Positions 4,185-52,970 of a DNA stretch of 64,000 bases are shown in pieces. The stretch comes from an uncultured Gammaproteobacteria bacterium. Lineage in GTDB: Bacteria; Pseudomonadota; Gammaproteobacteria; JAURND01. The notes below the pieces were generated by a model that saw only the letters and a program-made list of their open reading frames with translations, had not been told where the DNA came from and searched no databases. The first letter of the stretch is position 1. Every line of letters starts with the position of its first letter. The DNA lies in assembly GCA_963714975.1 (NCBI GenBank), contig CAVQQD010000003.1, positions 782,624 to 846,623 on the forward strand, given 5' to 3'. A program made the position numbers and the translations under genes.

Positions 4185-4439
4185 CTGAAAGTTAAGAAAA
4201 TACGATACTTCAAGATGCTAAAAAGACAGTATCTTGAAGTGCAATGGGTATATACTGAGCTGCGCCACGAAAAAATCACACCCCATTTAAATGGATTTAA
4301 ACGACTGAAAGCTGTTAATGTGCTCATATAAACTCTCAGCCAATGCGCATTGATTTTTTTCATATTCTTCGTAGCGCTGATTAATCTCTGCATGTTGATC
4401 TAATAGTAATTCTGCCGCGCCGTTAATAACTGGAACAAG

Positions 4440-4640
4440 CGCAAGCATTATTAAATGATGCTTGCCCACTCAATGCTCCTGCCCGTGCTGACCTGCGGCG
4501 TGATTTTTTACAACAATTAGCAGAATATAAAAAAGCTGACCCTGATAAGCCGCCCACCTCAGCAAGCGTTACAAAAGCGCGCTATTCAAGTGAGTTCATC
4601 AGTAACAACAACTACTACGAGTCGATTAATTTCCCCACAA
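4440..4640. repeat. Inverted duplicate of the 3' end of the WD40 gene (gene-end remnant)
   Basis: Plus-strand 4440-4560 is near-identical to the reverse complement of ~4880-5000. It encodes ...NAPARADLRRDFLQQLAEYKKADPDKPP, versus the WD40 protein C-terminus ...NAPARADLRRDFLKQLAEYKKADPAKPP. There is no upstream ORF, so it reads as a truncated remnant. Confidence 0.6.
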
Positions 4641-4777
4641 GCTAAGTGATAATAGTGATCTCGATCTGACGCGCAGCACGCGGACATTATAAATCATTGA
4701 TTCAGATACAAAAATTCACGAGAATTCGTCACGAATTCCACGTGACGGTCTCGATTTTAAGGCAATCCCTTGGGATA

Positions 4778-19421: not shown

Positions 19422-20366
19422 CGAACCAGGTAAGCGGCAGCAGAGGATTTGGGTAGGTGATGGCGAAGCGAGGAAAATACAGCGTTACTTCGCCATACCT
19501 ATGCTCCTCTGCTACTCGCTTACCCCTCGTTGACTGGATGAACACCCCCCAAAAACCTGGACACTCGTACCCCAAGCCCACAACACGCCGCGGACAATCG
19601 AGGAGTTCTCATGGAGTAAGAGCTTATTGATCCAGGCATACCACTGCGGCCTAGACCAACGCCAAGTGAAAAAATGGGTGAACATCAAGAAAAGAGTTTT
19701 GCACAAACGCACATTGCGATAAGCTTCCATCGTCACGGCTATAACCTCCATCTGGTTATTGTTGTGAAAGTGCCTCAAGAATGCGATCAACATTCTTTTG
19801 GCGCGGCCTCGGAGGCACAAGCCCCCGAGGTTTTAGCATTATTCATTGACTTTAGCTGAAATGCAAATATTTCTTAAGAGTGGCTTATCTTAGGCATTGA
19901 CTTCTCATCCCACTGATCTATTCTGAGTGACCCATCACACCTCTGCTTTCAATTTCTGTTTCTTTTATAAATCTTTTGCTGCACTTGTTAATTTTTCCTT
20001 AAGCTAGTAGACTGTCAACGTGGTTGGGCAGTATCGCAAGTGCGACATCGCAAGTGCGACAGGCCAACCCACTGTTATTTTGAGCGAACCGAAGGGCCTC
20101 CTAGTAAGCGTCGTCCTGGCATGGATGTTAGGATTCAGCCACAGGGATGTGACAGTTTCGCTTCCTACCTTGGATTGTTAGTGATCAAAAACCATCCATG
20201 GTTTTTGCCCTGCGGGTCGCTTCGCGTGGCTAATTTGTTCCTGACAAATTAGTCCTGCAGGGATTAGGAGGTCGGGGGAGGTCTTTCGCTTCGCTTAGAA
20301 TGACAAATTTGTTAGGAATTTATTGAGGAGGGAATTTAAAAACCCACGTGAAGTTATTGCAGTCCT

Positions 20367-23300
20367 ATGGCCCCTAATATTTTTACTTGTTTTATCATTG
20401 GAGAGGATAATCTCCATTTGGAATGTGCCAAAATTATCCAACAACAAGGACAGCAAATAATAGGCATTATCTCTGCGTATGAAGCCGCAGAACTATGGGC
20501 TTTGCAACAGGGAATTCCCCACTATGCCTCGCTAGCAGCCGCCCAAGAAGCACTCAACAAGACTCCTTTTGATTATTTATTTAGCATCGTCAATGCGCAG
20601 ATTTTGCCTGCCGCGATACTCAATTTGCCTCGGCAATTGGCGATTAATTTTCATGATGCGCCTTTACCACGGTATGCTGGAGTTCACGCCACTTCCTGGG
20701 CGATCTTAAATCAAGAAAAGACGCATGGCATTACTTGGCATGTGGCTACTGAAACCGTCGATGCCGGTGATATTTTACAGCAAGTGATGGTGCCAATTAC
20801 TGAAGATGAAACTGCGTTGAGTTTAAACCTCAAATGCTATGAAGCCGCGCTGCAAAGCTTTCCTGAGTTAGTGAAATCTTTGGCGAATCACAGTTATCAA
20901 CGCCAACCCCAAGATCTAAGACAACGTACCTATTTTGGTCTCCATCAAAAACCTGCTGGCGATGGCTGGATTGATTGGAATGCCAGTGCCGAAGATATTG
21001 AGCGATTATTTCGGGCTACTCAATTTGGCTCCTATCCTAATCGGTTTACTTGTCCTAAATTTAAGTTGTCATTCCAGCCGGACGAACCGTCATCCCAGCA
21101 AGGAAGCTGGGAAGATGAATTTATTATCACTCAATTAGAACTATTACCCGAGCCATCGACTGTAGCTCCTGGAACCATTGTTGCTACTACAGAGGAGTAT
21201 TGGCGCGTTGCGACCGCTACTTGCGACATCGCTATTCGGCAGATTTGTACTTTAGAAGGTGATGCAGTCATTCTGGAAGGAGAAGGGGTGCTAGATCAGG
21301 CTCACCCCTCATCCGGCCTTCGGCCACCTTCTCCCACAAGGGGAGAAGGAGTGAAGTTGAGGGCTTATGAGGCTCGAGCGGAAATCTCCCCTTTGTCCTT
21401 CGAGACGCTTCGCTCCTCAGGACGAATGGGGGGCAGGGGGGATTTAAACAGCGGAGGAGGCGATGAAGCCTACTGGGTTTCCCAATGGCAATCCATAGAG
21501 CCTGCCAAAATTCCCTTCCTGAATTTTAATCACCTCGAAAATAAATCCTCATTCCTTCTCCCCCTGTGGGAGAAGGTGGCCGAAGGCCGGATGAGGGGAG
21601 AACCCTCAGAATTCACCCCTCATCCGCCAGCCTACCCTGAGCCTGTCGAAGGGGCACCTTCTCCCACAAGGGGAGAAGAAGTAATGCCGGGGATGTATGA
21701 GAGGAGGTATTATCACCTACAACAATGGACCCTCCCCACCTCCTTACAAAAATTATTACACCAACATTACCCTACTCACGATTTCAACACCCTTCTTTTA
21801 GCCCTCTGGCTCGTCTATTTTTATCGTCTCGGTAATCAACCCAACGTAGGAGTGCTGCTGCAATTACCTGATCAAAATGCTTCACATCCTAGTGATCTGG
21901 ATCCTGGCATCCATGCCAGGACGAGTTTAGAACTACCGTATTTCACTGTCTTACAAGACGGATTACACTTCGGCCAAGTAGTGTCCCAATTACAAGATGA
22001 GTTACAGGCCATGCAACAAAAAGGCAGTTATTTACGCGATATATTTTATCGTTATCCAATTTTAACCGAAGTCAAACACGCCGTGTTTACTGCAGTGGTG
22101 ATTGGAGAAATCAATCAGCTACAAAAATCTCGTGCTGCTTTGGTGTTGGGGATATCTGCCAAAGATTATAGTTTATCTTGGCACGTCGATCAAAATTGCT
22201 TAACACAAGAACCCTACTTAAAAACCATCCTAGATCAAATGCCCGGCCATTTAGAAACCTTGCTAACCGCCATTACCACGCAACCAGAAACTCCCATTGC
22301 CGATTTAGTGCTACTTACACCCCAAGAACAGCAGCAAATCTTAATTGATTGGAATCAAACTGAAACAGACTATCCACGCGATAAAACTATTCCGCAATTA
22401 TTTGAAGAACAGGTTCAAAAACATCCCAATAAAATCGCCGTTTGTTTTGAAAATCAATCGCTCACCTATCGTGAGCTTAATCAACAAGCCAATCAACTTG
22501 CGCATTACTTAAGTCAACAAGGGGTGGTAGCTGAAACTTTAGTCGCAATTTGCATGGAACGCAGCATCGAAATGATTATTGGGATTTTGGGGATTTTAAA
22601 GGCGGGGGGTGCTTATGTGCCGATTGATCCTGAGTATCCAAGAGCGAGAATAAAGTTCATTTTCGAGGATTGTCGGGCTATGTTTGTGCTTACTCAATCT
22701 CGTCTTGCTAAGAAAATACATGCTATTACAGATGGCGCTGTTATTACGGTTGATAAAATTAAAAATATCAAAATTCATAACAAAGAATCTATTAGCTTAA
22801 ATTTTGACTCTTCTCAATTAGCTTATGTCATTTACACCTCAGGTACTACGGGAAAACCCAAAGGGGTTCTTATTAAACATCAGGCGGTGGTGAATACGGT
22901 CTTGGCAAAGTTACGAAAATTTGCCATTAATCACTCTGATAGAATCTTAAATTTTTCCACCCTTAGTTTTGATGCTTCTGTGTGGGAGATATTTCCCTGT
23001 CTATTTGCAGGAGCAACCTTATATCTGGCCAGGAAAGAAAATTTGTTACCAGGCAGTAAACTTACGCATTTTCTAGAAAAAAATAAAATTACTATCGCTA
23101 CTTTAGTGCCTTCTATACTAGCGATAACTCCACCACCTTCTACCTCCCATTTGCGGATAATTATTTCAGCGGGTGAATCATGCTCGAAGGCGGTAGTAAA
23201 GCAATGGGAAAACGTCGCTATTTTTGTTAATGCCTATGGGCCCACTGAATTTACAATTTGTGCTGCTATGGCAATCGTAGGTAAAGATGCAAATAAAATA

Positions 23301-26300
23301 ACTATTGGTAGACCGATTGCAAATACTAAAATTTTTATTTTAGACGATAAAATGCAGCTTTTACCCGTAGGCATCACCGGAGAGTTGTACGTCACAGGAC
23401 ACGGTTTGGCAAAAGGATATTTAAATCGAGATGCACTGACTAAAAGTAAGTTTATACCTTGGGCTTTGGAGCATGGAACCAAAGAGGTATCTCAAATAGT
23501 GTATAAAACGGGTGACTTGGCTCGTTGGTTGCCTGATGGTAACCTAGAATATATGGGCCGAGTGGATGAACAAATTAAAATTTTAGGCTGTCGGGCAGAG
23601 TTAGGTGAACTGGAAGAAATAGCAGTAACGTATCCTAATATTTTACAAGCTGCGGCTTGTCTAGATACAACAGCCGAAAAAAACCAAATTAACCTCTTTT
23701 TTGTCAATAAAAGTGACCGCAATGCAATTGATATTGCAAAGTTTAATCGCTTTCTAAAAAAACAGGTCCCTCGCTACACTGTTCCCTCTAAAATAATTGA
23801 AGTAGCTCGATTTCCAAGAACCGTTAATGGGAAAATTGATAAAAATTTATTGCTCAAAAAAATGTTTTTCATTAAGCAACCAGTTATAGAACCTCCGTCG
23901 ATCAAAGAAACATTACTCCTGGAAATTTTTCAAAAGATACTGAGAATTGATTCACTCCATTTAGAGGATGACTTCTTTCTCCTGGGGGGTGACTCCATTT
24001 TAGCAATGCATTTGGTTTCCAAAATCAATGCATTAGGCTTCCATTGTTCCGTGCGAGATGTATTTGAAGCATCCACCATAAAAAAATTGGTCATAAGGTT
24101 ACATAAAAAAAATCCTATAGAACCGATTGCGCTATTATCCAAAGATTTTTCCTTAACTCCAATTCAGCGTTGGTTTTTTGCGCAATCTTTCAGGCATCCG
24201 AAGCAGTTTGTTCAAATTTGCTGGCTAGAATTTCAAAAACCCATTAATTCAGAATTACTCGTTTGCTGCTTGCGGGAAATTATTGAATGGCATGAAATTT
24301 TTCGTCTTCGCTTTAAAAAGAAAGAAGGAATTTGGCAACAATATTATGCTGATAAGGTTCATGAATCATGCACCGATTTTCCAGTTATCGATAACTCTTC
24401 GCTGGTAATTCAGGATTTTGCGAATGAGTGGGTGATGAATGTGGCCCAGGATTTTAATTTTGAGACAGGCTATCTACTCAAGGTGGCCTTAGTACGCCAG
24501 CAAGGGAAAATTACCCATTTACTCTTAGCAGCACATCATTTGATTATGGATGGTGTATCTTGGCAAATTTTCTTTGATGATTTGCAGAGTTTATATGCAG
24601 GATCGGAAAAAGAGGGTAATAATTGGCAAAAATTTGCCAATAGTACTTCCTATCAACAGTGGGTTTACGCGCTAGAAAACTATATAGTTTCTTCGCAATT
24701 TAAAGCAGAGCAAAGCCATTGGCAAGGTGTTGATCCATTTACGTACATTCCTATTGATCACCACCAAGGGACTAATACGGAAAAATCTGCAGAATATGTC
24801 ACCGTAACATTAACCGAGGAAGAAACTCAGCGTTTATTGCGCACACTCGCTAAAACGCATCACTTGAATACCGATGAAATTCTAATTGCCTTGTTGGCAA
24901 AGTCCCTCATGCGCTGGTGCCAAACAGATTGCATCACGCTGGATATTGAACGCCACGGTCGGGAAGAATTAACAACGGAAATTAATTTAACAGGCACTTT
25001 AGGTTGGTTTACTAGTCTATTTCCTCTGCGGTTAAGCTGTAATAAAAATTTATCGCTACTCGAAATCATCCAATCGGTTCAGCAGCAATTACAAACGGTA
25101 CCACGTCATGGCATTAGTTATGGGTTACAGCATTATTTTTCTGGAGAATGGAAGCCAAAATCCAGTCTGCATGAGGGTGAAAATTTTACATCCCTGCACG
25201 CTGGATCCCGGCATCCTGCCGGGACGACGGGCCGCATCGCCTTTAATTACTGGGGTCAATTGGATCAAGCTTTTGCACAAAATTTCTTCACTTTGGGTGA
25301 GTTAAAATTGTTATCGCATCCCGAAAATATTCGTCCCTATTTGATCACTATTGATGCCGTAATCAAAAATAAGCAACTGCAACTAAGTTGGGCTTATAGT
25401 CGCAACTTCCATCGCCATGAAACCATCCAAGATCTCGCGCAGAATTTTGTGACTGATCTTCGAAATTTATTAACAAACACTCAGTTACAAAAACCAAAAA
25501 TTAGCTATGCTTTGACCGCGGTTCAACAAGGGTTACTCTTTGAACAATGTCGCTTTCCGCAAGCGCATTATTATCAAGCACAAGCGTGTTGGGAGCTGAA
25601 ATTATCTGGTCATTTTGATGCCAAATTATTACAAGCCGCATGTCGCTTTTTAGTGCAGCGTCATGATGTGTTGCGAACTCGTTTTGTGGTGTCAGGGTCG
25701 CAAGAGCCCACGCAATTCGTTGAAGAATCTATGGAAGTGCCTTGTGACATAATAGATCTACAGCAAGCGAAAGACCCTGAAGTGCAACTCACAAAGTTTC
25801 GTCTTGCCGACCAAGCTGCTTTGATTCATTGGCAAGCAACATCCCTTTTACGTGTTCAAATAGTGCTGCTGCCTGAAAATCGCTGTTACTTAATTTTGCA
25901 TTTTAATCACATGATTTTAGATGGCTGGAGTTTTTCGATTTTAGTCAAAGAATTTCACCAGTATTGTCAGGCGCAACAACAAGGATTAGCGCTGAATTTG
26001 CCCCCTACTTATCCTTTTGCTGATTATGTCCACTGGTTGCAGCACCAGAGTTGGAGTGCAAGTCAGGCGTTTTGGAAAAATTATTTGGCTAAATTTAATG
26101 AACCTGTCAATTTAAAGGTCTTGGGATTATTCGATGCGACGGCTGAAAAAACCGAGCTCTCGCGATGCGAGTTTGTGTCAACTCCCTTGTCTTCTGAATT
26201 AGGTCAAAAATTACAGCATTTTTGCCAAATGCAGCACATCAGCTTAAACACATTCTTTCAAGCGTTATGGGGTATTTTATTGCACCGCTATACCCAGACC

Positions 26301-29300
26301 CCTGATATTGTGACGGGCATGACCGTGTCGGGACGCAATATTGACTTGCCTCAGATCCAAGAGCGGGTAGGATTATTTATTAATAGTATTCCCTTGCGAC
26401 AACAGTTTGTCCCTGAGATAACAGTGCTGGCTCACTTGCAACAATTGCAAAAGACTATTACGTGCTTAATTCCGCACAGCACCTTCCCTCTTGCCGCCAT
26501 TCAAGCCTGCTCTGCACTATCTACTGCAGAACATCCCTTGTTTGATAGTCTAGTCGTCTTTGAAAATTATCCCCAAGCAACCCAAGAGGAAATCGAATTT
26601 TGGGATCCAACTCATTATGGTTTGACTTTGCTTATTACTCAAGGTTCCTGTTTGAAGCTGAAATTAGGCTATGATTGCCAACGTATTAATATAGAACGAG
26701 TCCAAAATTTACTGGAACATTTACAACATCTTTTGACCGTAGTCTTAGACAATCCACAGCAACAGATTGCCCGCTTACCTTTATTGACTACAGCAGAATA
26801 TCAAAAGCTATTTGCTCCAACCCAAACTGTAGTAGTGCTGGAAAATGTGGTAAGTTGTTTTCAAAAACAAGTAGTTAGTTCTCCTCACCATCCCGCGCTA
26901 GTTTGGGAGGGTCAGGTCTTGAGTTATCAAGACTTAGAAAATCAATCCAATCAATTGGCGCATTATTTAGCGACATTTCCGCATCATGGTGAAATGCCGA
27001 TTGGAGTATGCTTACCCCGTTGTCCCGAATTAGTCATCAGTTTGCTCGCGATCTGGAAGATGGGGGGAGCTTATTTGCCTTTAAATCCTGACTATCCGAC
27101 GGCTCGATTGCAAAGTATAGTAGATAGCCATCAAGTGAATCTTTTAATTTCCAAGAACATGATTCAAAAACTTACCGTGAACCATCCGATATTGTTGGAT
27201 CAAGTTCAAGCGAGTATCTGTCAACAACCTACTTATTATCCTCAGCATAGGATTCAACTGACGGATTTGGCGGCCATTTTAACCACTTCAGGCACCACCG
27301 GTAATCCTAAAAGCATTGCCCAAGAACATAAAACACTGGCGAATCTTGTGCATTGGCAACATCATGCATTTGCTTCCTCAGCAAAAAGACGAGTGACGCA
27401 ATTAGCAGCAATGAATTTTGATGTTTCATTACAAGAAATAACTTATGCGCTTGCTCAGGGCGATACGCTATATATTGTGCCAGAAACTATCAAACAATCC
27501 CTGGCGGAATTACTACGCTTTTTAGCGATCAATAAAATTCAACAAGCATTTTTAACCACTGCTTTATTGGAAGTTTTTTGTGAAGCGGCCTTATTTTTTA
27601 AACCCAACTTAAACTATCTGACTGAGATTTATGTAGCAGGAGAGGCATTAAAAATCTCTGGCCCGATCAAACAATTTTTTTCGCAAAATCCTCATATAGA
27701 CTTGGTGAATGAATATGGACCGACGGAAACTCATGTAGTAGCGACTCATCGATTATCAGTAGATACCATCGATAATTGGCCTTATTTACCGCCCATTGGA
27801 CGCGCAATTGACAACATCCGCTTATATGTCTTAGATGCCCAGTTACAAGCCTTACCGATCGGTATTCCGGGTGAGCTGTATATAGGTGGCGTCAATTTAG
27901 CGCGTGGTTATCTCCACAATGACAAGCTCACCCAAGAAAAATTTGTCCCCAATCCCTTTGATCCTATTGGTACCTCACGCTTATATCGTACGGGTGATCA
28001 GGTTCAGTGGAATGCGGCAGGGGAATTACTTTATTTAGGCCGTTACGATGATCAAGTAAAAATTCGCGGTTTTCGTATTGATCCGCAAGAAATTGAAGAA
28101 GCCTTACTAACACATAGCACCATTCAACAATGTTTGGTGACTGTGATTTCAGAGGAAAAATCAGCGCAATTAGTGTGCTATTTTGTCCCTTCTGATAAAA
28201 ATGAAGATGCAGAAAGTTTACGCCACCCATTGCGAAAAATATTACCTGACCATTTAATTCCGACCTATTTTATCAGGTTACAGTCCTTTCCCTTAACACG
28301 CGTTGGCAAAATTGATCGGCAGGCACTACCCCGACCTGAGCAAAGGAATGCCATAAGTAATACCACTTTTCGTCACGCTTATGAGCAACAACTCGCCGAG
28401 TTGTGGTCCGAAATTCTCCTTTGCACTTGCATAGATCGAGAGGTATCTTTTTGGGCTTTGGGTGGTGACTCGATTAAAGCTTTGCGCTTATTATTCTTAA
28501 TTGAACATCATTTGCAAGTGACGTTATCGCTGCAGGATTTTTTTACAGCACCTTCCATTGCCCAGATGAGTGATCGCATTCGTTTGACACAAGCGGATAA
28601 GGTATTGCAAAATCAGTGGCAAACCCTAGATTTTAAAGGATGCCACTTACCTTCTCCCTTAGTGCCATTACAAACCACAGGAGAAAAAACACCGCTGTTT
28701 ATTATCCACCCGATTGGTGGCACAGTTTTTGCCTTTTTAGATTTGGTCCGTTATCTGGGAAATGAGCGACCTATTTATGGAATTCAAGACCCCAACGTAG
28801 CTGACAATAACCATATTTCTTTTTTTAAAAATTTAGAAGAATTAGCAGCCTATTATGTTTATGCATTGCGCAGTGTCCAGCCTCAGGGTCCTTATTTTTT
28901 GTCGGGTTGGTCCTTTGGTGCTACTGTTGCCTTTGAAATGGCGCGACAAATTCTCGCTAGTCATGAAAAAGTAGAATTTTTAGGCTTACTCGATGGTTGG
29001 GCGGCGTATCCCAGCGAATTGCAAAATGAAAAAACATTCAAACAACTCATTCAAAAACAATGTGATGACTTATACCAACAATTTCATCTCAATCAACTAA
29101 AAAATCCTGATTTCTGGGTGGAACTACAATGGCAACGCAGTGATCTGCTTTGGCGATATAAGTTAAGACCTGTAAACACAGCTATAACTTTATTTAAAGC
29201 GAAAGAAGGGATACCAGGATTTCATGAGTCGTATGAGAAAGATTATGGCTGGCATCAATTTACCACCAAGCCAGTAGAAGTGTATGAGGTTCCGGGGGAT

Positions 29301-29387
29301 CATGCTTCGATGTTTCAGGAACCTTATGTGCAATCTTTAGCTGGTGCAGTATCTGCTGCATTAAATGAGGGACATATGGTTCATTAG
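20367..29387 (+). CDS. Nonribosomal peptide synthetase, two modules with an N-terminal formyltransferase (F) domain: F - partial C - A1 - T1 - C - C(NHxxxDG) - A2 - T2 - TE
   Basis: The N-terminus is Fmt-like (..HDAPLPRYAGVHATSWAILNQE..). A-domain cores appear twice (YTSGTTGKPKGV / TSGTTGNPKSI, NAYGPTE / NEYGPTE, GELYVTGHGLAKGYLNR / GELYIGGVNLARGYLHND, YKTGDLARW / YRTGDQVQW). T domains are LGGDSILA and LGGDSIKA. C domains carry HHLIMDGVSW and NHMILDGWSF. The TE has GWSFGATVAFE. Confidence 0.85.
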   Translation: MAPNIFTCFIIGEDNLHLECAKIIQQQGQQIIGIISAYEAAELWALQQGIPHYASLAAAQEALNKTPFDYLFSIVNAQILPAAILNLPRQLAINFHDAPLPRYAGVHATSWAILNQEKTHGITWHVATETVDAGDILQQVMVPITEDETALSLNLKCYEAALQSFPELVKSLANHSYQRQPQDLRQRTYFGLHQKPAGDGWIDWNASAEDIERLFRATQFGSYPNRFTCPKFKLSFQPDEPSSQQGSWEDEFIITQLELLPEPSTVAPGTIVATTEEYWRVATATCDIAIRQICTLEGDAVILEGEGVLDQAHPSSGLRPPSPTRGEGVKLRAYEARAEISPLSFETLRSSGRMGGRGDLNSGGGDEAYWVSQWQSIEPAKIPFLNFNHLENKSSFLLPLWEKVAEGRMRGEPSEFTPHPPAYPEPVEGAPSPTRGEEVMPGMYERRYYHLQQWTLPTSLQKLLHQHYPTHDFNTLLLALWLVYFYRLGNQPNVGVLLQLPDQNASHPSDLDPGIHARTSLELPYFTVLQDGLHFGQVVSQLQDELQAMQQKGSYLRDIFYRYPILTEVKHAVFTAVVIGEINQLQKSRAALVLGISAKDYSLSWHVDQNCLTQEPYLKTILDQMPGHLETLLTAITTQPETPIADLVLLTPQEQQQILIDWNQTETDYPRDKTIPQLFEEQVQKHPNKIAVCFENQSLTYRELNQQANQLAHYLSQQGVVAETLVAICMERSIEMIIGILGILKAGGAYVPIDPEYPRARIKFIFEDCRAMFVLTQSRLAKKIHAITDGAVITVDKIKNIKIHNKESISLNFDSSQLAYVIYTSGTTGKPKGVLIKHQAVVNTVLAKLRKFAINHSDRILNFSTLSFDASVWEIFPCLFAGATLYLARKENLLPGSKLTHFLEKNKITIATLVPSILAITPPPSTSHLRIIISAGESCSKAVVKQWENVAIFVNAYGPTEFTICAAMAIVGKDANKITIGRPIANTKIFILDDKMQLLPVGITGELYVTGHGLAKGYLNRDALTKSKFIPWALEHGTKEVSQIVYKTGDLARWLPDGNLEYMGRVDEQIKILGCRAELGELEEIAVTYPNILQAAACLDTTAEKNQINLFFVNKSDRNAIDIAKFNRFLKKQVPRYTVPSKIIEVARFPRTVNGKIDKNLLLKKMFFIKQPVIEPPSIKETLLLEIFQKILRIDSLHLEDDFFLLGGDSILAMHLVSKINALGFHCSVRDVFEASTIKKLVIRLHKKNPIEPIALLSKDFSLTPIQRWFFAQSFRHPKQFVQICWLEFQKPINSELLVCCLREIIEWHEIFRLRFKKKEGIWQQYYADKVHESCTDFPVIDNSSLVIQDFANEWVMNVAQDFNFETGYLLKVALVRQQGKITHLLLAAHHLIMDGVSWQIFFDDLQSLYAGSEKEGNNWQKFANSTSYQQWVYALENYIVSSQFKAEQSHWQGVDPFTYIPIDHHQGTNTEKSAEYVTVTLTEEETQRLLRTLAKTHHLNTDEILIALLAKSLMRWCQTDCITLDIERHGREELTTEINLTGTLGWFTSLFPLRLSCNKNLSLLEIIQSVQQQLQTVPRHGISYGLQHYFSGEWKPKSSLHEGENFTSLHAGSRHPAGTTGRIAFNYWGQLDQAFAQNFFTLGELKLLSHPENIRPYLITIDAVIKNKQLQLSWAYSRNFHRHETIQDLAQNFVTDLRNLLTNTQLQKPKISYALTAVQQGLLFEQCRFPQAHYYQAQACWELKLSGHFDAKLLQAACRFLVQRHDVLRTRFVVSGSQEPTQFVEESMEVPCDIIDLQQAKDPEVQLTKFRLADQAALIHWQATSLLRVQIVLLPENRCYLILHFNHMILDGWSFSILVKEFHQYCQAQQQGLALNLPPTYPFADYVHWLQHQSWSASQAFWKNYLAKFNEPVNLKVLGLFDATAEKTELSRCEFVSTPLSSELGQKLQHFCQMQHISLNTFFQALWGILLHRYTQTPDIVTGMTVSGRNIDLPQIQERVGLFINSIPLRQQFVPEITVLAHLQQLQKTITCLIPHSTFPLAAIQACSALSTAEHPLFDSLVVFENYPQATQEEIEFWDPTHYGLTLLITQGSCLKLKLGYDCQRINIERVQNLLEHLQHLLTVVLDNPQQQIARLPLLTTAEYQKLFAPTQTVVVLENVVSCFQKQVVSSPHHPALVWEGQVLSYQDLENQSNQLAHYLATFPHHGEMPIGVCLPRCPELVISLLAIWKMGGAYLPLNPDYPTARLQSIVDSHQVNLLISKNMIQKLTVNHPILLDQVQASICQQPTYYPQHRIQLTDLAAILTTSGTTGNPKSIAQEHKTLANLVHWQHHAFASSAKRRVTQLAAMNFDVSLQEITYALAQGDTLYIVPETIKQSLAELLRFLAINKIQQAFLTTALLEVFCEAALFFKPNLNYLTEIYVAGEALKISGPIKQFFSQNPHIDLVNEYGPTETHVVATHRLSVDTIDNWPYLPPIGRAIDNIRLYVLDAQLQALPIGIPGELYIGGVNLARGYLHNDKLTQEKFVPNPFDPIGTSRLYRTGDQVQWNAAGELLYLGRYDDQVKIRGFRIDPQEIEEALLTHSTIQQCLVTVISEEKSAQLVCYFVPSDKNEDAESLRHPLRKILPDHLIPTYFIRLQSFPLTRVGKIDRQALPRPEQRNAISNTTFRHAYEQQLAELWSEILLCTCIDREVSFWALGGDSIKALRLLFLIEHHLQVTLSLQDFFTAPSIAQMSDRIRLTQADKVLQNQWQTLDFKGCHLPSPLVPLQTTGEKTPLFIIHPIGGTVFAFLDLVRYLGNERPIYGIQDPNVADNNHISFFKNLEELAAYYVYALRSVQPQGPYFLSGWSFGATVAFEMARQILASHEKVEFLGLLDGWAAYPSELQNEKTFKQLIQKQCDDLYQQFHLNQLKNPDFWVELQWQRSDLLWRYKLRPVNTAITLFKAKEGIPGFHESYEKDYGWHQFTTKPVEVYEVPGDHASMFQEPYVQSLAGAVSAALNEGHMVH
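21296..21700. repeat. Cluster of palindromic repeat elements inserted in-frame within the NRPS coding sequence (F-domain/C-domain linker)
   Basis: Three copies of a ~48-bp unit CACCCCTCATCCGGCCTTCGGCCACCTTCTCCCACAAGGGGAGAAGG lie at 21303-21350 and 21614-21686 (direct) and 21551-21598 (inverted). The family-1 core GACGCTTCGCTCCTCAGGACGAATGGGG is at 21404-21431. GGGGGGCAGGGGGGATTT is at 21427-21444. The ORF stays open and translates this stretch as low-complexity peptide (..PSPTRGEGV.. appears twice). Confidence 0.6.
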
Positions 29388-29436
29388 GGTCAAAAATTTA
29401 CTAATACGATGTTTTAACAAAATTTGGAGATTACTT

Positions 29437-31530
29437 ATGCATCAAAAAGATCGACAATTAGCGATTTCTTCGATTTTCGAATATAGCCGTCAGCCTATGA
29501 TTATTTTAGCCTCAGATGGAAAAATAATTGATGCAAATAAGGCTGTTATCGATATGTATGAATTGCGAAACAACACTTTGCAGGGTGCAGATTATTTTGC
29601 TCTTTTAGAAAAATTGGAATTAACTCCTCCAGTAACAGATGAACAGCTAAAAATGCTGCTTCCTGGTAATCCTGCTATAAAGCAAATTGCAAAAATTGGT
29701 GTAAGTAATAAGAATTACGTAATCGAATGGTCTATTCATTCCCTGATTCTAGATTTGGAAAAAATTTATGTCATTTTAGGTACTGATATTACTGCCGAGG
29801 AAGAAGTAAAAGTACTTGAAGAAAGAGGTAGAGAACAAATAAAAATAATGGCTAAATTGAATCAAGAAGTCCTCGGTGTTTCTGCAAAAGAACACGGAGT
29901 GTTGGAGAAATACGCTCATTCCATTCGTCACCATTTAGAAAGCATTATTGCCTGTATGCCAGGAAATATATATTGGATGGATAAAGATTGTAATTATTTG
30001 GGTTGCAATAATAATGTTGCAAGGATTTTGCACCTGAATAATCCTACAGAAATTATTGGGTTAAGTTATGACGATATGGCTAGGCTTAAAGGAGTAGACC
30101 CGGAGGAGTATAAAAAATTCAAAGAAGATGATTTGGAAGTAATACGAACAGGCGAGCCAAAACTAAATACTGAGGAACCCCCCCTTACAGATGAAAATGG
30201 AAATGTAGTATATTTTTTAACTAGTCGTGTTCCATTAACCGATGAACAAAAGGAAGTAACAGGTGTAGTGGGTGTTTCTATTGATATTACGGAACGCAAA
30301 ATCCTAGAACAAAAACTTTCCAAAGCCTTGGAGGCCGCCGAAGCTTCCGATCGTGCTAAAACGGATTTTATCCAAAACATGAGTCACGATGTCAAAACGC
30401 CGCTGGCGGGTATTATTTCCATGGCGCACAGGATCGGCACGCAACTCGAGGAGCCCGATGCTCTCGAAGATAATTATGAAAATGTGCAGATGATTAAAAA
30501 TTCGGGTAGGCAATTGATAGAATTTTTTATGAATTGTTTAGAGATGGGGCGGATTGAAACGGGGGAGGTGGGACTTAGCAATGAAAATTTCAATCCCCAA
30601 ACCATAATGGATCAGCTTGTCGAGATGTTGACCCCTTCCATGAAACAAAAAGGCTTAGGATTTTATTCCACTTATGATCCCGCTATTCCTGAAATGGTGT
30701 ATGCCAGCGCGCCGGGATTTTATCGGATAATTTTAAATTTACTAGGCAATGCGATTAAATTTACTGAGGAAGGCTCGATAAGCATGGACATTCTCTTACA
30801 GAAAACTCGCGATGAAGACACTGGCAAAGACAAAGAGGAACTTTGTTTAAAAATCCGCGATACTGGCATGGGCATTCCCCAAGAAAAAATCGCTAGCATT
30901 TTCGACCGCTTTACGCGCTTAACGCCTTCCTATGAGGGTAAATTTGAGGGCCATGGGATTGGGCTGTATATTGTGCATAAATTTGTCACTTTGATGGGAG
31001 GAAAAATTGATGTGGACAGCGAAGTGGGTAAGGGCAGTTGCTTCACCATCACGTTTCCTTTTTTACCCGCCAAGGCATTCCTGAAACCGAGAGCAGTCAA
31101 GCCTAAGTTTACCAAGCTAGCTCCCCTTGGGGATGCTATCAGCGAGGATGAAGAAACTGGCCCGCGTATTTTGTTGGTCGAGGATAATCGGATGGCTCAA
31201 AAAGGCATGGAATCGATTCTCACGCACTTAGGTTATACGCTCGATATTGTGAATACAGGTAAAAAAGCCCTAGATATTTTTGAATTGGATAAATATGTGC
31301 TGATTATTACCGATATTGGATTAGATGATATGAGTGGGACGACAGTAGCAGCGCATATTCGTACTGCAGAAAAGGGTCGAAAAAATCCAGTGCCGATTGT
31401 GGCTCTGACGGCCCATAATGTTGAAAAAGTGCAAGCGGAATGTGCAGCAGTGGGCATTAATGGGGTATTGGAAAAGCCCCTGACTGAGGAAGCGGCTCAG
31501 GAGGTGTTGGATTGTTTTGTCCAGAAGTAA
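29437..31530 (+). CDS. Hybrid sensor histidine kinase (two PAS domains, HisKA, HATPase, C-terminal receiver)
   Basis: The ORF track opens this frame at 29365, overlapping the NRPS stop. The ATG at 29437 has an SD GGAGA 7 nt upstream, so it is the preferred start. The second PAS (IIACMPGNIYWMDKDCNYLGCNNNVARIL) is paralogous to the PAS of the 17254 HK. The H-box is HDVKTPLAGI. The receiver block is ILLVEDN...DIGLDDMSG...K. Confidence 0.85.
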   Translation: MHQKDRQLAISSIFEYSRQPMIILASDGKIIDANKAVIDMYELRNNTLQGADYFALLEKLELTPPVTDEQLKMLLPGNPAIKQIAKIGVSNKNYVIEWSIHSLILDLEKIYVILGTDITAEEEVKVLEERGREQIKIMAKLNQEVLGVSAKEHGVLEKYAHSIRHHLESIIACMPGNIYWMDKDCNYLGCNNNVARILHLNNPTEIIGLSYDDMARLKGVDPEEYKKFKEDDLEVIRTGEPKLNTEEPPLTDENGNVVYFLTSRVPLTDEQKEVTGVVGVSIDITERKILEQKLSKALEAAEASDRAKTDFIQNMSHDVKTPLAGIISMAHRIGTQLEEPDALEDNYENVQMIKNSGRQLIEFFMNCLEMGRIETGEVGLSNENFNPQTIMDQLVEMLTPSMKQKGLGFYSTYDPAIPEMVYASAPGFYRIILNLLGNAIKFTEEGSISMDILLQKTRDEDTGKDKEELCLKIRDTGMGIPQEKIASIFDRFTRLTPSYEGKFEGHGIGLYIVHKFVTLMGGKIDVDSEVGKGSCFTITFPFLPAKAFLKPRAVKPKFTKLAPLGDAISEDEETGPRILLVEDNRMAQKGMESILTHLGYTLDIVNTGKKALDIFELDKYVLIITDIGLDDMSGTTVAAHIRTAEKGRKNPVPIVALTAHNVEKVQAECAAVGINGVLEKPLTEEAAQEVLDCFVQK

Positions 31531-31543
31531 CCGCTTTCTCTCT

Positions 31544-31583
31544 AAATCCCCCCTTACCCCCCTTTTTCAAAGGGGGGGATTTA
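31544..31583. repeat. Family-2 palindromic element (AAATCCCCCC...GGGGGGGATTT) 14 nt downstream of the HK stop
   Basis: AAATCCCCCCTTACCCCCCTTTTTCAAAGGGGGGGATTT. The same architecture recurs at 57189-57268 and 60648-60795. Confidence 0.55.
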
Positions 31584-31861
31584 CGCTTGGGCGGTGGCGA
31601 GAAGATTTTAGTGTGGAGGTCACCATGGATGTCTTACGATACAATGAATTAAATATTTCCGCGGTAAAAAAGCAGTACGATACTGTCGTGGCTTTACTCC
31701 AACAAAATAATTTTGCAGCGAGTGGGGTCAAGCAATTCGTAGGAACACCGTTTTACTTAGTGCCTTTGGATTCAACCCAGGGCTTGTTGTTTCGAGTAGT
31801 TTCCCATTTTCCTTGCTGCTCAGGGTAGAGTAGGGGTGCATGGTCTTCCTGACCTTTTCTT

Positions 31862-35186: not shown

Positions 35187-35447
35187 TTAAGGATAATAGG
35201 GATGATACGGATGTACGTACGGGTGGTAGTATGGATGATATGGGTAATAAGGATGATAGGGATGCACGTACGGATGGTAGTATGGATGATACGGATAATA
35301 GGGGTGATAGGGATGCACGTACGGATGATAGTACGGGTAATAAGAAACGGAAACACCAAGCTGGGCATAGCTCCCTAATGACGTAACCGCCAATAGACCA
35401 GCAGCCAAGGCCAAGGCAATCCGCTTTTTTAAAGAACCAAGTTTCAT
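35187..35447 (-). CDS. Secreted His/Tyr/Pro-rich tandem-repeat peptide
   Basis: Signal peptide MKLGSLKKRIALALAAGLLAVTSLGSYAQ, then YPYYHPYVHPYHPY repeated three times (42-nt DNA repeats), ending ..HPYYP. Followed by a terminator. Confidence 0.55.
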   Translation of the reverse strand: MKLGSLKKRIALALAAGLLAVTSLGSYAQLGVSVSYYPYYHPYVHPYHPYYPYHPYYHPYVHPYHPYYPYHPYYHPYVHPYHPYYP

Positions 35448-52563: not shown

Positions 52564-52598
52564 AATAATTACCTCATTATAAGTATAGTAGAATTCTT

Positions 52599-52748
52599 GT
52601 GAGCTCAAACTGAACTGAAGTCCCGCCGCCCGCCTACGGGGTCCTGCCGCGCGGACAACCCGCCGTGCTCGGCTACGAGCACGGCGGGTTGTCCGCGCGG
52701 CAGGACCCCGTAGGCGGGCGGCGGGACTTCAGTTCAGTTTGAGCTCAC
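52599..52748. repeat. Perfect 150-bp palindrome (73-bp arms, 4-nt GCTA centre), GC-rich
   Basis: Left arm 52599-52671 GTGAGCTCAAACTGAACTGAAGTCCCGCCGCCCGCCTACGGGGTCCTGCCGCGCGGACAACCCGCCGTGCTCG. Right arm 52676-52748 is its exact reverse complement. The arms are ~70% GC in a ~35-40% GC neighbourhood. Confidence 0.9.
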
Positions 52749-52970
52749 AAAATTTTTAATAAGAGATGAATATCCAGTCCGAGCCTGGTTGGCGGATAGA
52801 AATTGAGCCGTTAAGTGCTTCTTGAGTAGGGGAATAGAATGAACAAATTTGGTTGCCCACCTTGTCATAGGAGCTAGGCTGTAGACCTGGAGCGAGATCG
52901 ACGAAGTTTTTTTCCCATTCCCTGGGCTAATAAAGTAGCTGTTAACATATTGAGACTGACGCCTTCCTCT

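What the first reader, a model, noticed from the sequence alone, without database searches (positions are those of the whole stretch)
19860..31530. Formyltransferase-initiated two-module NRPS (F-A-T-C-C-A-T-TE) followed by a hybrid PAS histidine kinase, divergent from the CDPS-HK operon
The 3006-aa NRPS starts with an Fmt-like formylation domain, as in linear gramicidin LgrA. It has two A domains, two consecutive C domains (HHLIMDG and NHMILDG) and a terminal thioesterase. This predicts a small N-formylated dipeptide-derived product. Its stop overlaps the first ATG of a hybrid sensor kinase, though the SD-backed start is at 29437. The kinase's second PAS domain is paralogous to the PAS of the CDPS-linked kinase on the other strand. 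Two peptide-synthesis routes, each wired to a related PAS kinase and arranged divergently, suggest a coordinated small-molecule signalling module. The shared promoter region carries repeated TGACAAATT half-sites (20242-20250 and 20301-20309), a perfect palindrome ACAAATTTGT (20303-20312) and a tandem 14-bp direct repeat ATCGCAAGTGCGAC x2 (20034-20061). These are candidate operator sites.
Basis: partly seen in the sequence, partly recalled or inferred. Interest (0 to 1): 0.7.

Follow-up and report, generated by a model that had tools for sequence, protein, structure and literature searches.

The report
Formyl-dipeptide NRPS paired with sensor kinase
An intact 3006-residue peptide synthetase, predicted to make a small N-formyl-D-Phe-Xaa dipeptide, sits directly upstream of a cytoplasmic PAS sensor kinase, and this pairing recurs in Legionella and its relatives, which suggests an uncharacterised small-molecule signalling or regulation cassette.

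Summary
The anatomy needs three corrections.

- The first "C" domain is an epimerase and the second is a DCL-type condensation domain.
- A truncated C domain (C-terminal half only) lies between the F domain and A1.
- The F domain is a full two-lobed ArnA/Fmt-like formyltransferase, only distantly related to the LgrA F domain.

The architecture is F-C*-A(Phe)-T-E-C-A(Pro-like)-T-TE. A1 carries the exact GrsA/TycA Phe code. The predicted product is N-formyl-D-Phe-L-Pro(-like).

The strongest new result is conservation. An F-initiated one- or two-module NRPS lies next to a PAS hybrid kinase of the same type in seven other loci, including Legionella lytica and L. adelaidensis. Paralogues in a sister genome keep module 1 at 91-95% identity but have a different module 2.

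The "CDPS" on the other strand is a genuine XYP-type cyclodipeptide synthase. Here it is a pseudogene, with a deletion and a frameshift.

The proposed operator motifs are not statistically convincing and are not conserved. Only the 14-bp tandem duplication is clearly non-random.

Monomodular Legionella relatives were predicted in 2016 to make N-formyl amino acids and were suggested as signals. This locus is therefore a new variant of a known kind, with moderate interest.

The parts
20367..29387 (+). NRPS gene, 3006 aa: F-C*-A(Phe)-T-E-C(DCL)-A(Pro-like)-T-TE
   Evidence: ORF. Pfam hits. An identical 3006-aa protein (P0244) is in public data on an 866-kb contig.
20367..21266 (+). Formyltransferase (F) domain, N and C subdomains, with N94/H96/D132
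   Evidence: Formyl_trans_N E 6e-19 and Formyl_trans_C E 2.5e-7. Best solved relatives are ArnA, FDH and Fmt; LgrA F scores only E 4e-7. N94, H96 and D132 are invariant in 8 relatives. The motif NFHDAPLPRYAG is present.
21267..21686 (+). F-to-C* linker swollen by in-frame insertions of dispersed palindromic repeats (21276-21368, 21399-21425, about 21525-21690)
   Evidence: These stretches are absent from the close homologue P0001 and vary among the paralogues. Copies occur at 731-807 and 31537-31582. They fold as strong hairpins.
21687..22361 (+). C*: C-terminal half of a condensation domain, without the HHxxxDG lobe. It holds a fourth in-frame repeat at 21879-21926.
   Evidence: Pfam Condensation positions 250-456, E 4e-4. 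The family profile A3 matches McyB C-domain residues 196-465 at E 4e-22. The fourth repeat is absent from P0246.
22362..23876 (+). A1 adenylation domain, specificity code DAWTIAAIC(K) = Phe
   Evidence: Ungapped alignment to TycA. Code extraction. 1AMU (GrsA PheA) matches at E 8e-129.
23892..24116 (+). T1 carrier domain (GGDSI)
   Evidence: PP-binding E 1e-13. GGDSI at aa 1207.
24132..25466 (+).
   Evidence: Every solved match at E<1e-10 covers an epimerisation domain or E-domain region: PvdL, BacC, TycB, GrsA, TycA. Motifs PIQRWF, HHLIMDGVS, ERHGRE and FNYWG are present.
25503..26816 (+). DCL-type condensation domain (NHMILDGWS)
   Evidence: Best solved matches are C domains that, from published architectures, follow E domains: McyB 2e-65, TycB1 4e-57, BacC, PvdL, SrfA-C. 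TycC (2jgp) and LgrA C, which I take to be LCL-type from published work, score 1e-13 to 3e-20.
26847..28316 (+). A2 adenylation domain, code DVQFYAEVV(K), Pro-like
   Evidence: Code extraction. GrsB and TycB chains (which I take to be the Pro-activating modules) are among the best solved matches for the specificity stretch.
28362..28601 (+). T2 carrier domain (GGDSI)
   Evidence: PP-binding E 3e-12. GGDSI at aa 2699.
28677..29366 (+). Thioesterase domain (GWSFG)
   Evidence: Thioesterase E 2e-28. GWSFG at aa 2847.
29437..31530 (+). Hybrid sensor kinase HK2, 697 aa from the SD-backed ATG (an alternative ATG at 29365 overlaps the NRPS stop). Domains: PAS-PAS-HisKA-HATPase-REC, with no TM segment and no Hpt.
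   Evidence: Pfam. Start-site context. No TM segment, and H-box SHDVKTP. The REC Asp is present. No Hpt remnant was found. There is no terminator or stable hairpin in the 49-nt gap.
31537..31582 (.). Dispersed repeat that forms a 13-bp hairpin immediately after the HK2 stop. It is the likely 3' end of the unit.
   Evidence: Repeat family D13/I4. Fold of -37.6 kcal/mol for 31521-31640.
19821..20366 (.). Divergent intergenic region. It holds the 14-bp tandem duplication (20033-20060), a perfect 10+10 inverted repeat (20186-20207), two TGACAAATT copies (20242-20250, 20301-20309) and the palindrome at 20303-20312.
   Evidence: Promoter-like hexamers lie at 19897-19924 (+) and 20018-19991 (-). None of these motifs is shared with the upstream regions of related loci.
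18665..19421 (-). XYP-type cyclodipeptide synthase pseudogene, with a deletion and frameshift near 19125-19141
   Evidence: It is split between two frames. The merged sequence finds a 250-aa family, with an intact 88%-identical copy, P0124. The family profile matches 5OCD at 1e-80. Residues about 88-94, including the invariant G89 and W92, are missing.
17254..18651 (-). HK1: membrane (PQ-loop-like) PAS histidine kinase downstream of the CDPS pseudogene
   Evidence: Pfam. TM-like segments. It is 58% identical to the kinase that follows the CDPS in L085.
16862..17257 (-). Stand-alone receiver protein with Asn at the phospho-acceptor position
   Evidence: Response_reg E 3e-20, with a weak iREC hit. 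Alignment.

Best explanation
The gene at 20367-29387 encodes an intact two-module non-ribosomal peptide synthetase of the form F-C*-A(Phe)-T-E-C(DCL)-A(Pro-like)-T-TE.

Inferred chemistry:
1. A1 loads L-Phe onto T1.
2. The N-terminal ArnA/Fmt-like formyltransferase domain formylates the tethered amino group using N10-formyl-tetrahydrofolate.
3. The E domain epimerises the residue to D.
4. The D-specific condensation domain joins it to a proline-like residue on T2.
5. The thioesterase hydrolyses off N-formyl-D-Phe-L-Pro(-like), expected [M+H]+ about 291.13 if residue 2 is Pro.

The truncated C domain between F and A is a structural remnant that carries the F domain. The linker beside it tolerates in-frame insertions of dispersed repeats.

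The soluble dual-PAS hybrid kinase starts 49 nt downstream with no terminator between, so it is probably co-transcribed. It belongs to a conserved cassette of F-initiated small NRPS plus PAS hybrid kinase found in Legionella and related bacteria.

The most likely logic is that the kinase either senses the formyl-peptide (feedback or autoinduction) or gates its synthesis in response to an intracellular cue.

Shown: anatomy, motifs, specificity codes and conserved neighbourhood.
Inferred: formylation, product identity, co-transcription and any ligand-sensor relation.
For: - Domains and boundaries.
- E rather than C.
- DCL type.
- C* is the C-terminal half of a C domain.
- The F-domain triad N94/H96/D132 is conserved.
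- A1 code DAWTIAAIC is identical to TycA over an ungapped alignment.
- A2 code is DVQFYAEVV.
- T (GGDSI) and TE (GWSFG) active-site motifs are present.
- The same architecture occurs in P0245, P0338, P0349 and P0362; P0246 shows it from C* to A2. A Phe-type A1 code is found in five of the six compared, the window included.
- The 49-nt gap holds an SD sequence and no terminator or hairpin.
- A kinase lies next to the F-NRPS in L002, L005, L006 and L045, in L087 within an NRPS-hydrolase-kinase-PPTase operon, in L. lytica with an 8-nt overlap, and in L. adelaidensis in divergent orientation.
- These kinases share the soluble PAS-HisKA-HATPase-REC layout, with two PAS domains in most, and are 34-39% identical to HK2.
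Against: - No experiment supports any step.
- C2 has NH instead of HH in its active-site motif, unlike all relatives.
- About 110 residues of repeat-derived sequence sit in the F-C* region, with unknown effect on folding.
- A2 matches the canonical Pro code at only 7 of 9 positions.
- HK2 has no Hpt domain, although several homologues do. No cognate DNA-binding regulator is nearby.
- No PPTase, MbtH or exporter gene lies next to the locus.
- PAS kinases of this type may be numerous in such genomes, so adjacency could partly reflect shared ancestry.
- HK2-type and CDPS-linked kinases are only weakly separated by identity, 34-39% against 32-36%.
- Several low-GC F-NRPS loci show no kinase in the flanks available.
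Confidence: 0.6

Rival explanations
1. The kinase is a regulator only. The formyl-dipeptide acts outward, on an amoebal or animal host (for example as a formyl-peptide mimic or a protease ligand) or on competitors. HK2 merely switches production on in response to an unrelated intracellular cue sensed by its PAS domains.
For: - HK2 is cytoplasmic with no TM segment, so it is not an obvious receptor for an external autoinducer.
- The genome context is rich in eukaryote-like genes: Ank, STPK, WD40, Sel1, Macro and U-box in the relatives.
- Residue 2, or the whole substrate and release chemistry, differs widely among relatives that carry similar kinases.
- A 2010 analysis proposed host manipulation for the CDPS products of intracellular bacteria (PMC2922099).
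Against: - A small formyl-dipeptide could re-enter or remain in the cell and be sensed by a cytoplasmic PAS domain.
- Tight coupling, such as the 8-nt overlap in L. lytica, fits either model.
- Nothing tested here separates the two.
Confidence: 0.3
2. The assembly line is impaired or decaying. The repeat insertions, the NH variant in C2 and the missing Hpt mark a locus on its way to becoming a pseudogene, like the CDPS next door.
For: - The neighbouring CDPS is a pseudogene.
- The sister genome holds truncated copies, P0001 (608 aa) and P0246, which has no F or TE domain.
- NHMILDG is unique to this copy.
- There are four in-frame repeat insertions.
Against: - A 9-kb ORF with no stop codon and with every catalytic motif of F, A, T, E, C and TE intact is unlikely without selection.
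- All insertions are in frame and confined to the F-C* region.
- P0245 in the sister genome carries two of the same insertions and is also full length.
- From published C-domain studies, the second His of HHxxxDG is the catalytic one, and it is retained.
Confidence: 0.1
3. The released product is not formylated. If formylation is slow or skipped, D-Phe-L-Pro-S-T2 cyclises to the diketopiperazine cyclo(D-Phe-L-Pro), so the NRPS and the neighbouring CDPS are two routes to diketopiperazines.
For: - The module order A(Phe)-T-E-C-A(Pro-like) copies GrsA/GrsB1 and TycA/TycB1. From published work, their D-Phe-L-Pro intermediate cyclises spontaneously.
- A CDPS family lies beside the NRPS.
Against: - The F-domain catalytic triad is conserved across the family.
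- Relatives have Gly-, Thr- or Ser-type second residues, or only one module, so diketopiperazine formation cannot be the common theme.
- A dedicated TE is present.
Confidence: 0.1
4. The NRPS and the kinase are neighbours without any functional link. The adjacency reflects abundant PAS kinases and inheritance of one ancestral arrangement.
For: - HK2, HK1 and the CDPS-linked kinases all belong to one broad family at 32-40% identity.
- Some low-GC F-NRPS loci show no kinase.
Against: - The pairing survives changes of orientation (divergent in L002, L006 and L090; co-directional in the window, L005, L045, L087 and L089).
- It also survives changes in module number, release domain (TE or R) and substrate.
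- In L087 the kinase lies between NRPS accessory genes, a hydrolase and a PPTase.
- Only two such kinases occur in this 64-kb window, and both flank peptide-synthesis genes.
Confidence: 0.08

Closest known systems
LgrA initiation module (F-A-T) of linear gramicidin synthetase, Brevibacillus
   Same: A formyltransferase domain at the N-terminus of the first NRPS module, with the Asn-His-Asp catalytic residues. It is expected to formylate the first carrier-bound residue. The LgrA A domains are the best overall solved matches to A1.
   Different: - The window's F domain has both Formyl_trans_N and Formyl_trans_C lobes and is closer to ArnA, FDH and Fmt (E 4e-17 to 5e-13) than to LgrA F (E 4e-7).
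- It is separated from A by about 280 residues that form the C-terminal half of a C domain, whereas in LgrA the A domain starts about 20 residues after the matched part of F.
- Module 1 also has an E domain, which LgrA module 1 lacks.
GrsA/GrsB1 and TycA/TycB1 (the D-Phe-L-Pro start of gramicidin S and tyrocidine)
   Same: The Phe specificity code DAWTIAAIC is identical, and the order is A-T-E, then a DCL condensation domain, then a Pro-type A domain.
   Different: - An N-terminal F domain and C* are present here.
- Both modules lie on one polypeptide and end in a TE, so the dipeptide is the final product and not an intermediate.
- The A2 code differs from canonical Pro at two positions, 299 (I to Y) and 322 (H to E).
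Legionella BGC 'clusters C, G and I' (Tobias et al. 2016, PeerJ, PMC5126622)
   Same: These are small F-initiated NRPSs in Legionella, predicted to make N-formylated amino acids and suggested to be signalling compounds. The L. lytica and L. adelaidensis F-A-T-TE genes are 39-43% identical to the window's F domain.
   Different: - Those clusters are monomodular (F-A-T-Red or F-A-T-TE). The window gene is bimodular with E and DCL domains.
- The paper's main text does not contain the word 'kinase'.
- No product has been isolated for either.
Autoinducer synthase and sensor kinase cassettes such as Lqs (L. pneumophila) and Cqs (Vibrio), cited from general knowledge
   Same: A small-molecule synthase gene is kept next to a two-component sensor kinase gene.
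   Different: - The synthase here is an NRPS, not an aminotransferase-like enzyme.
- HK2 is soluble with PAS domains and is not a membrane receptor.
- No sensing has been shown.
XYP-subfamily cyclodipeptide synthases (solved structures 5OCD, 5MLQ; Legionella lansingensis CDPS makes cyclo(Gly-Glu), PMC5816076)
   Same: The minus-strand gene family matches solved CDPSs over its full length at E 1e-80, and the VYP and YxxEE motifs are conserved.
   Different: - The window copy lacks residues about 88-94 and is frameshifted.
- Its conserved linkage to a PQ-loop/PAS kinase is not mentioned in the CDPS papers I read.

Membership tests
Modular (type I) NRPS | Adenylation domains with core motifs and an invariant Asp235/Lys517-type specificity pocket | tested here: met
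   Two AMP-binding hits at E 1e-91 and 9e-63. Codes begin with D, and NGKIDK and VGKIDR are present.
Modular (type I) NRPS | Carrier domains with the phosphopantetheine-attachment Ser | tested here: met
   GGDSI at aa 1207 and 2699. PP-binding hits.
Modular (type I) NRPS | Condensation domain with HHxxxDG | tested here: inconclusive
   C2 reads NHMILDGWS. The second (catalytic) His is kept, but the first is Asn, unlike five relatives that have HH.
Modular (type I) NRPS | Terminal thioesterase with GxSxG | tested here: met
   Thioesterase E 2e-28. GWSFG at aa 2847.
LgrA-type formylation (F) initiation module | N-terminal formyltransferase domain with the Asn/His/Asp catalytic residues | tested here: met
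   NFHDAPLPRYAG and D132, which are invariant in relatives.
LgrA-type formylation (F) initiation module | F domain fused directly to the A domain (F-A-T) | tested here: not met
   About 365 residues (about 280 in relatives) lie between F and A. They form the C-terminal half of a C domain.
LgrA-type formylation (F) initiation module | Specific sequence relationship to the LgrA F domain | tested here: not met
   LgrA F scores E 4e-7, weaker than ArnA (4e-17), FDH and Fmt.
LgrA-type formylation (F) initiation module | Formylation of the carrier-bound first residue with N10-formyl-THF | not testable with these tools
   This needs an enzyme assay.
Epimerisation domain | E-specific motifs, and closest relatives that are E domains | tested here: met
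   PIQRWF, HHLIMDGVS, ERHGRE and FNYWG are present. All ten solved matches cover an E domain or E-domain region.
DCL condensation subtype | Closest to C domains that follow E domains | tested here: met
   McyB, TycB1, BacC, PvdL and SrfA-C score 2e-65 to 1e-47. TycC (2jgp) and LgrA C, which I take to be LCL-type from published work, score 3e-20 or weaker.
Hybrid histidine kinase | HisKA H-box, HATPase_c, and a receiver domain with the acceptor Asp | tested here: met
   Pfam. SHDVKTP. IITDIGL aligns with CheY D57.
Hybrid histidine kinase | Hpt domain for a phosphorelay, fused or adjacent | tested here: not met
   No Hpt was found in HK2 or anywhere in the 64-kb window. Homologues in L005, L087 and L089 have one.
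Legionella F-initiated small NRPS (clusters C/G/I of PMC5126622) | F domain homologous to those of Legionella F-A-T-TE/Red genes | tested here: met
   43% identity to the L. lytica gene and 39% to the L. adelaidensis gene over the whole F domain. The C* and A layout is the same.
Legionella F-initiated small NRPS (clusters C/G/I of PMC5126622) | Single module | tested here: not met
   There are two modules, with E and DCL domains.
Signal synthase and cognate sensor cassette (quorum-sensing-like) | Conserved adjacency of synthase and sensor genes across genomes | tested here: met
   Eight loci including the window.
Signal synthase and cognate sensor cassette (quorum-sensing-like) | The sensor responds to the synthase product, with density- or product-dependent expression | not testable with these tools
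   This needs binding or phosphorylation assays and expression data.
Cyclodipeptide synthase, XYP subfamily (minus-strand gene) | Full-length profile match to solved CDPSs | tested here: met
   5OCD at E 1e-80 and 5MLQ at 2e-45.
Cyclodipeptide synthase, XYP subfamily (minus-strand gene) | Intact reading frame with the invariant residues | tested here: not met
   The gene is split between two frames, and G89 and W92 are deleted.

The most novel reading that the evidence does not exclude
Legionellales carry a family of NRPS-made N-formyl (D-Phe-Xaa or single-residue) peptides. Each is paired with its own cytoplasmic dual-PAS hybrid kinase, forming a peptide-based autoinducer or 'pherotype' system. 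Signal specificity is diversified by swapping module 2 while module 1 stays nearly identical. A parallel system of CDPS, PQ-loop kinase and pseudo-receiver signals through diketopiperazines. The two cassettes travel together, as in this window and, by gene counts, in duplicate in the sister genome.
Probability: 0.2. Interest if true: 0.85.

Novelty: new variant of a known kind. Interest (0 to 1): 0.55.

Why it matters
No product of an F-initiated Legionella-type NRPS has been isolated in the literature I could search, and its biological role is open.

This locus gives a concrete and cheap target: a predicted 290-Da N-formyl-D-Phe-L-Pro-like dipeptide.

It also gives a concrete partner to test it on: a soluble PAS hybrid kinase whose pairing with the synthetase holds across Legionella and related uncultured bacteria.

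If the kinase senses the peptide, this would be a new chemical class of bacterial signal in a group of intracellular pathogens and amoeba symbionts. If it does not, formyl peptides made by an intracellular bacterium are still of interest as possible host-directed molecules.

The locus also shows that a mega-enzyme can absorb several in-frame insertions of selfish palindromic repeats in an inter-domain linker.

Tried and rejected
- **Source contigs of the window and sister genome.** Exact-protein look-ups for HK2, the receiver protein, P0001, P0122 and P0245 all returned nothing. The sister genome's gene order therefore could not be read. Its duplicated cassettes are inferred only from protein fragments that share one contig length.
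- **Genome-contig scan with the F region.** It found one distant Acidobacteriota locus and no close relative.
- **Rfam.** Nothing in the window except tRNA-Asn, so there is no known riboswitch or leader in the 5' region.
- **Shared upstream motifs.** K-mer comparison across seven F-NRPS loci found only AT-rich words.
- **Repeats in the intergenic region.** It is not built from the dispersed repeats, apart from one 17-28-nt match to 21897-21924.
- **Pfam on the CDPS fragments.** No hit, and TIGR04539 only at E 0.0035, below its cutoff. The family profile against solved structures settled the question.
- **Hpt remnant after HK2.** None found.
- **The 103-aa ORF at 31517-31828.** It has no family hit and overlaps a repeat, so I treat it as spurious.
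- **Divergent partner of the CDPS in L085.** It is not an NRPS and looks transposase-like by eye, so the juxtaposition of the two cassettes is not general.
- **Literature.** Searches for Legionella, NRPS and formyltransferase, or for N-formyl, NRPS and histidine kinase, found nothing relevant.
- **Not attempted.** Structure prediction was not run because no open question here depended on it. Taxonomy was not pinned down.

Full report
**What is there**

The window holds a 9,021-nt ORF at 20367-29387 (+), 3006 aa, followed by a 721-aa ORF at 29365-31530. Pfam finds Formyl_trans_N and Formyl_trans_C, two AMP-binding, two PP-binding, two Condensation and one Thioesterase domain in the first ORF. 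In the second it finds PAS, PAS_4, HisKA, HATPase_c and Response_reg. Scanning the large protein in pieces fixed the order of domains. It also exposed a weak extra Condensation hit (profile positions 250-456, E 4e-4) between the formyltransferase and the first A domain. An identical 3006-aa protein is already in public data, on an 866-kb contig with no name attached.

**Correcting the domain string**

- The first one (aa about 1256-1700) matches only epimerisation domains or E-domain regions among solved structures at E<1e-10: PvdL, bacitracin synthase 3, TycB, GrsA and TycA. It carries the E motifs PIQRWF, HHLIMDGVS, ERHGRE and FNYWG.
- The second (aa about 1713-2150) matches best the C domains that, from published architectures, follow E domains: McyB 2e-65, TycB1 4e-57, BacC, PvdL and SrfA-C. 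The C domains of TycC (2jgp) and LgrA, which I take to be LCL-type from published work, score 3e-20 or weaker.

So this is the ordinary T-E-C(DCL) arrangement.

The stretch between F and A1 is about 280 aa in relatives. A profile of 16 family members matches the C-terminal half of C domains, for example McyB residues 196-465 at E 4e-22. It lacks the N-terminal lobe with the active-site histidines. The architecture is therefore F-C*-A-T-E-C-A-T-TE.

**The F domain**

It has both lobes of an Fmt/ArnA-type formyltransferase. Among solved proteins it is closest to ArnA (4e-17), formyl-THF dehydrogenase and Met-tRNA formyltransferase. LgrA's F domain scores only 4e-7. The catalytic Asn94, His96 and Asp132 are present and invariant in eight relatives. 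The comparison with LgrA therefore holds for function (inferred) but not for family or layout. In LgrA the A domain begins about 20 residues after the matched part of F. Here half a C domain intervenes.

**Substrates**

The specificity stretch of A1 aligns without gaps to TycA. It gives the code DAWTIAAIC, identical to the TycA/GrsA Phe code. A2 gives DVQFYAEVV. From published codes this is nearest to proline (DVQFIAHVV, 7 of 9). GrsB and TycB chains, which I take to be the Pro-activating modules, are among its best solved matches. Both T domains have GGDSI, and the TE has GWSFG. The predicted product is N-formyl-D-Phe-L-Pro, or a proline-like residue in second position. This is the D-Phe-L-Pro start of gramicidin S and tyrocidine, capped with a formyl group and released as a dipeptide. 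One oddity is that C2 reads NH rather than HH, unlike five relatives.

**The kinase**

The first ATG, at 29365, overlaps the NRPS stop by 23 nt. A GGAG lies 7 nt before the ATG at 29437, and the PAS fold begins there, so 29437 is the likelier start. The 49-nt gap has no promoter-like or terminator-like pattern and no stable hairpin. HK2 has no hydrophobic segment, and it has an H-box and a receiver domain with the acceptor Asp. It has no Hpt domain, and no Hpt remnant exists downstream. A dispersed repeat forming a 13-bp hairpin follows its stop. HK2 and the minus-strand kinase HK1 are 33% identical overall and 36% identical over the PAS domain, E 1e-18. These are the only two such PAS domains in the 64 kb.

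**Is the NRPS-kinase pairing meaningful?**

This is the main new result. A metagenome scan with an F-domain alignment returned 80 loci, which I mapped with the window's domains. Combined with exact-protein look-ups and the plasmid collection, a PAS hybrid kinase of the HK2 type lies next to an F-initiated small NRPS in these loci:

| Locus | NRPS | Kinase position |
|---|---|---|
| L002 | F-C*-A-T-E... | divergent upstream |
| L006 | F-C*-A... | divergent upstream |
| L005 | F-C*-A-T-reductase | downstream, kinase with Hpt |
| L045 | F-C*-A-T-TE | PAS gene downstream, cut by the contig end |
| L087 | 2922-aa bimodular | NRPS, hydrolase, kinase-Hpt and PPTase in one tight operon, with a LuxR-type regulator upstream |
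| L089, Legionella lytica plasmid pLlyPCM2298_1 | F-C*-A-T-TE | the kinase gene overlaps the NRPS gene by 8 nt |
| L090, L. adelaidensis | F-A-T-TE | divergent upstream |

The pairing survives changes of orientation, module number, release domain and substrate. The A codes are Val-, Gln- and other types by my reading of published codes. All kinase-linked loci have 35-38% GC. F-NRPS loci from other phyla lack the kinase, and so do some low-GC loci in the flanks available.

The kinases are 34-39% identical to HK2, against 32-36% for the CDPS-linked kinases. Orthology is thus suggested by architecture more than by identity.

**A diversifying family**

Five other proteins share the architecture, four of them in full: P0245, P0246 (C* to A2 only), P0338, P0349 and P0362. 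Three of them have A1 codes identical or nearly identical to the Phe code. In the sister genome, P0245 and P0246 are 91-95% identical to the window in A1, and 86% and 79% in C*; P0245 is also 92% identical in F. They are only 31-39% identical in module 2. Their A2 codes are DILQLGLVW (Gly-type) and DFWNIGMIH (Thr-type). L087 and P0362 have DVWHISLID (Ser-type). So N-formyl-D-Phe is the constant part and residue 2 is the variable part.

**Prior knowledge**

Tobias et al. 2016 (PMC5126622) described monomodular Legionella NRPS clusters (C, G, I). They predicted N-formylated amino acids as products and suggested that they could be signals, partly because of neighbouring regulators. The word 'kinase' does not occur in the main text. 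I found no paper on a bimodular version, on the kinase pairing or on any product. That search covers open-access text only.

**The 'CDPS-HK operon'**

The minus strand between 19421 and 18665 is split between two frames. Pfam finds nothing there, and TIGR04539 matches only at E 0.0035. The merged sequence, however, belongs to a family of about 250-aa proteins with 176 hits. One is an intact copy, 88% identical, in the sister genome, and others come from Legionella maceachernii and Tatlockia. A profile of this family matches solved cyclodipeptide synthases over its full length: 5OCD at 1e-80 and 5MLQ at 2e-45. It is a genuine XYP-type CDPS.

In the window, residues about 88-94 are missing, including the invariant G89 and W92, and the frame shifts. 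The gene is a pseudogene here.

The order CDPS, then PQ-loop/PAS kinase, recurs in L085, and a similar kinase lies near the CDPS in L. maceachernii.

The small receiver protein after HK1 has Asn at the phospho-acceptor position and Thr in the sister genome. The E. coli CheY sequence used as the reference in that alignment was written from memory.

**The proposed operators**

- All coordinates check out.
- TGACAAATT occurs 3 times in the window against 1.34 expected, and 15 of 100 shuffles reach 3.
- By my estimate, a 9-mer repeated within 500 bp and a 10-bp AT-rich palindrome are each expected about 0.5 times.
- None of the motifs occurs upstream of the related NRPS genes, though those relatives are distant.
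- The exact 14-bp tandem duplication is real: 0 of 100 shuffles reach its count.
- Promoter-like hexamers lie further upstream, at 19897-19924 (+) and 20018-19991 (-). The repeats may therefore sit in a long leader of about 350-450 nt.

**In-frame selfish repeats**

The NRPS is 76% identical to P0001 across the whole alignment and about 90% outside the gaps. It has three extra stretches in the F-C* linker (aa 304-334, 345-353 and about 387-435). A fourth, ASHPSDLDPGIHARTS, lies inside C* and is missing from P0246. These stretches are copies of palindromic repeats found elsewhere in the window, at 731-807 and 31537-31582. They fold into strong hairpins. All are in frame, and their number differs among the paralogues.

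**Context and limits**

The window has tRNA-Asn, an integrase, duplicated Ser/Thr-kinase-ankyrin genes, and WD40, Sel1, ankyrin and Macro proteins. It also has housekeeping genes: cydAB, a class I W/Y-type aminoacyl-tRNA synthetase, an ABC exporter (probably msbA), lpxK and lhr. This profile, together with the nearest named homologues, points to a Legionellales-like intracellular bacterium. That is an inference, because the organism was not identified. No PPTase, MbtH or dedicated exporter lies nearby. The sister genome's gene order could not be read. Every step of chemistry and signalling is inferred from sequence.

**Verdict**

The locus is a new bimodular variant of the F-initiated small NRPSs already noted in Legionella. 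What is added here:
- a corrected architecture;
- a specific product prediction;
- a conserved partnership with a soluble PAS hybrid kinase;
- evidence that the neighbouring CDPS is dead in this genome.

Noticed in passing
window 21276-21368, 21399-21425, about 21525-21690, 21879-21926: Four in-frame insertions of small palindromic dispersed repeats lie inside the NRPS coding sequence, in the F-C* linker and in C*. They are translated as stretches such as GLRPPSPTRGEG and FETLRSSGR. Their number varies among paralogues, and copies occur at 731-807 and 31537-31582. This resembles the Rickettsia palindromic elements found inside genes.
   Followed up: partly
window 18665-19421 (-): An XYP-type cyclodipeptide synthase has been inactivated by a short deletion plus a frameshift that removes the invariant G89 and W92. 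An intact copy, 88% identical, exists in a sister genome.
   Followed up: yes
window 16862-19421 (-); L085 817-3369; L086 6467-10747: The CDPS gene is repeatedly linked to a kinase with a PQ-loop-like membrane N-terminus and one PAS domain. This looks like a second conserved 'peptide synthase plus sensor' cassette in Legionellales. The CDPS papers I read do not mention it.
   Followed up: partly
window 16862-17257 (-): The stand-alone receiver protein after HK1 has Asn at the position of the phospho-acceptor Asp (Thr in the sister genome) and lacks one residue of the acidic pocket. It is probably a pseudo-receiver.
   Followed up: partly
window 31528-31640: HK2 ends right after its receiver domain and has no Hpt, although several homologues (L005, L087, L. 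lytica) have a fused Hpt. A dispersed repeat forming a 13-bp hairpin starts 7 nt after the stop.
   Followed up: partly
window 20186-20207: A perfect 10+10 inverted repeat, CAAAAACCAT cc ATGGTTTTTG, lies in the NRPS upstream region.
   Followed up: partly
proteins P0001, P0245, P0246, P0122/P0123, P0124/P0158 (all on one 1.24-Mb contig): The sister genome appears to hold at least three copies of the NRPS module 1 (one full length, two truncated), two CDPS copies and two receiver copies. This suggests that the whole double cassette was duplicated and is now decaying unevenly.
   Followed up: partly
window 11705-13522 and 13927-16605 (+); 10538-11407; 2898-2973: Two paralogous Ser/Thr-kinase-ankyrin genes are present, the second with an internal duplication (repeat families D1, D4, D6-D11). 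They lie downstream of an integrase gene and a tRNA-Asn, so the region may be a genomic island that carries eukaryote-like effectors.
   Followed up: no
window 52586-52761 and 4426-5030: Two long inverted repeats: 86-nt arms, 95% complementary, 4 nt apart (52586-52761); and 139-nt arms, 86% complementary, 327 nt apart (4426-5030, beside or overlapping the 3' end of the WD40 gene).
   Followed up: no
window 35188-35340: Three tandem copies of a 51-nt unit (82-88% identity) lie inside a small minus-strand ORF next to the 1119-aa ankyrin gene.
   Followed up: no
L087 16779-17804; L088 9770-10885: A conserved alpha/beta-hydrolase-like gene (341 and 372 aa, 29% identical) immediately follows the bimodular F-NRPS in two relatives. 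It is absent from the window. It may be an editing or tailoring enzyme of the cassette.
   Followed up: partly
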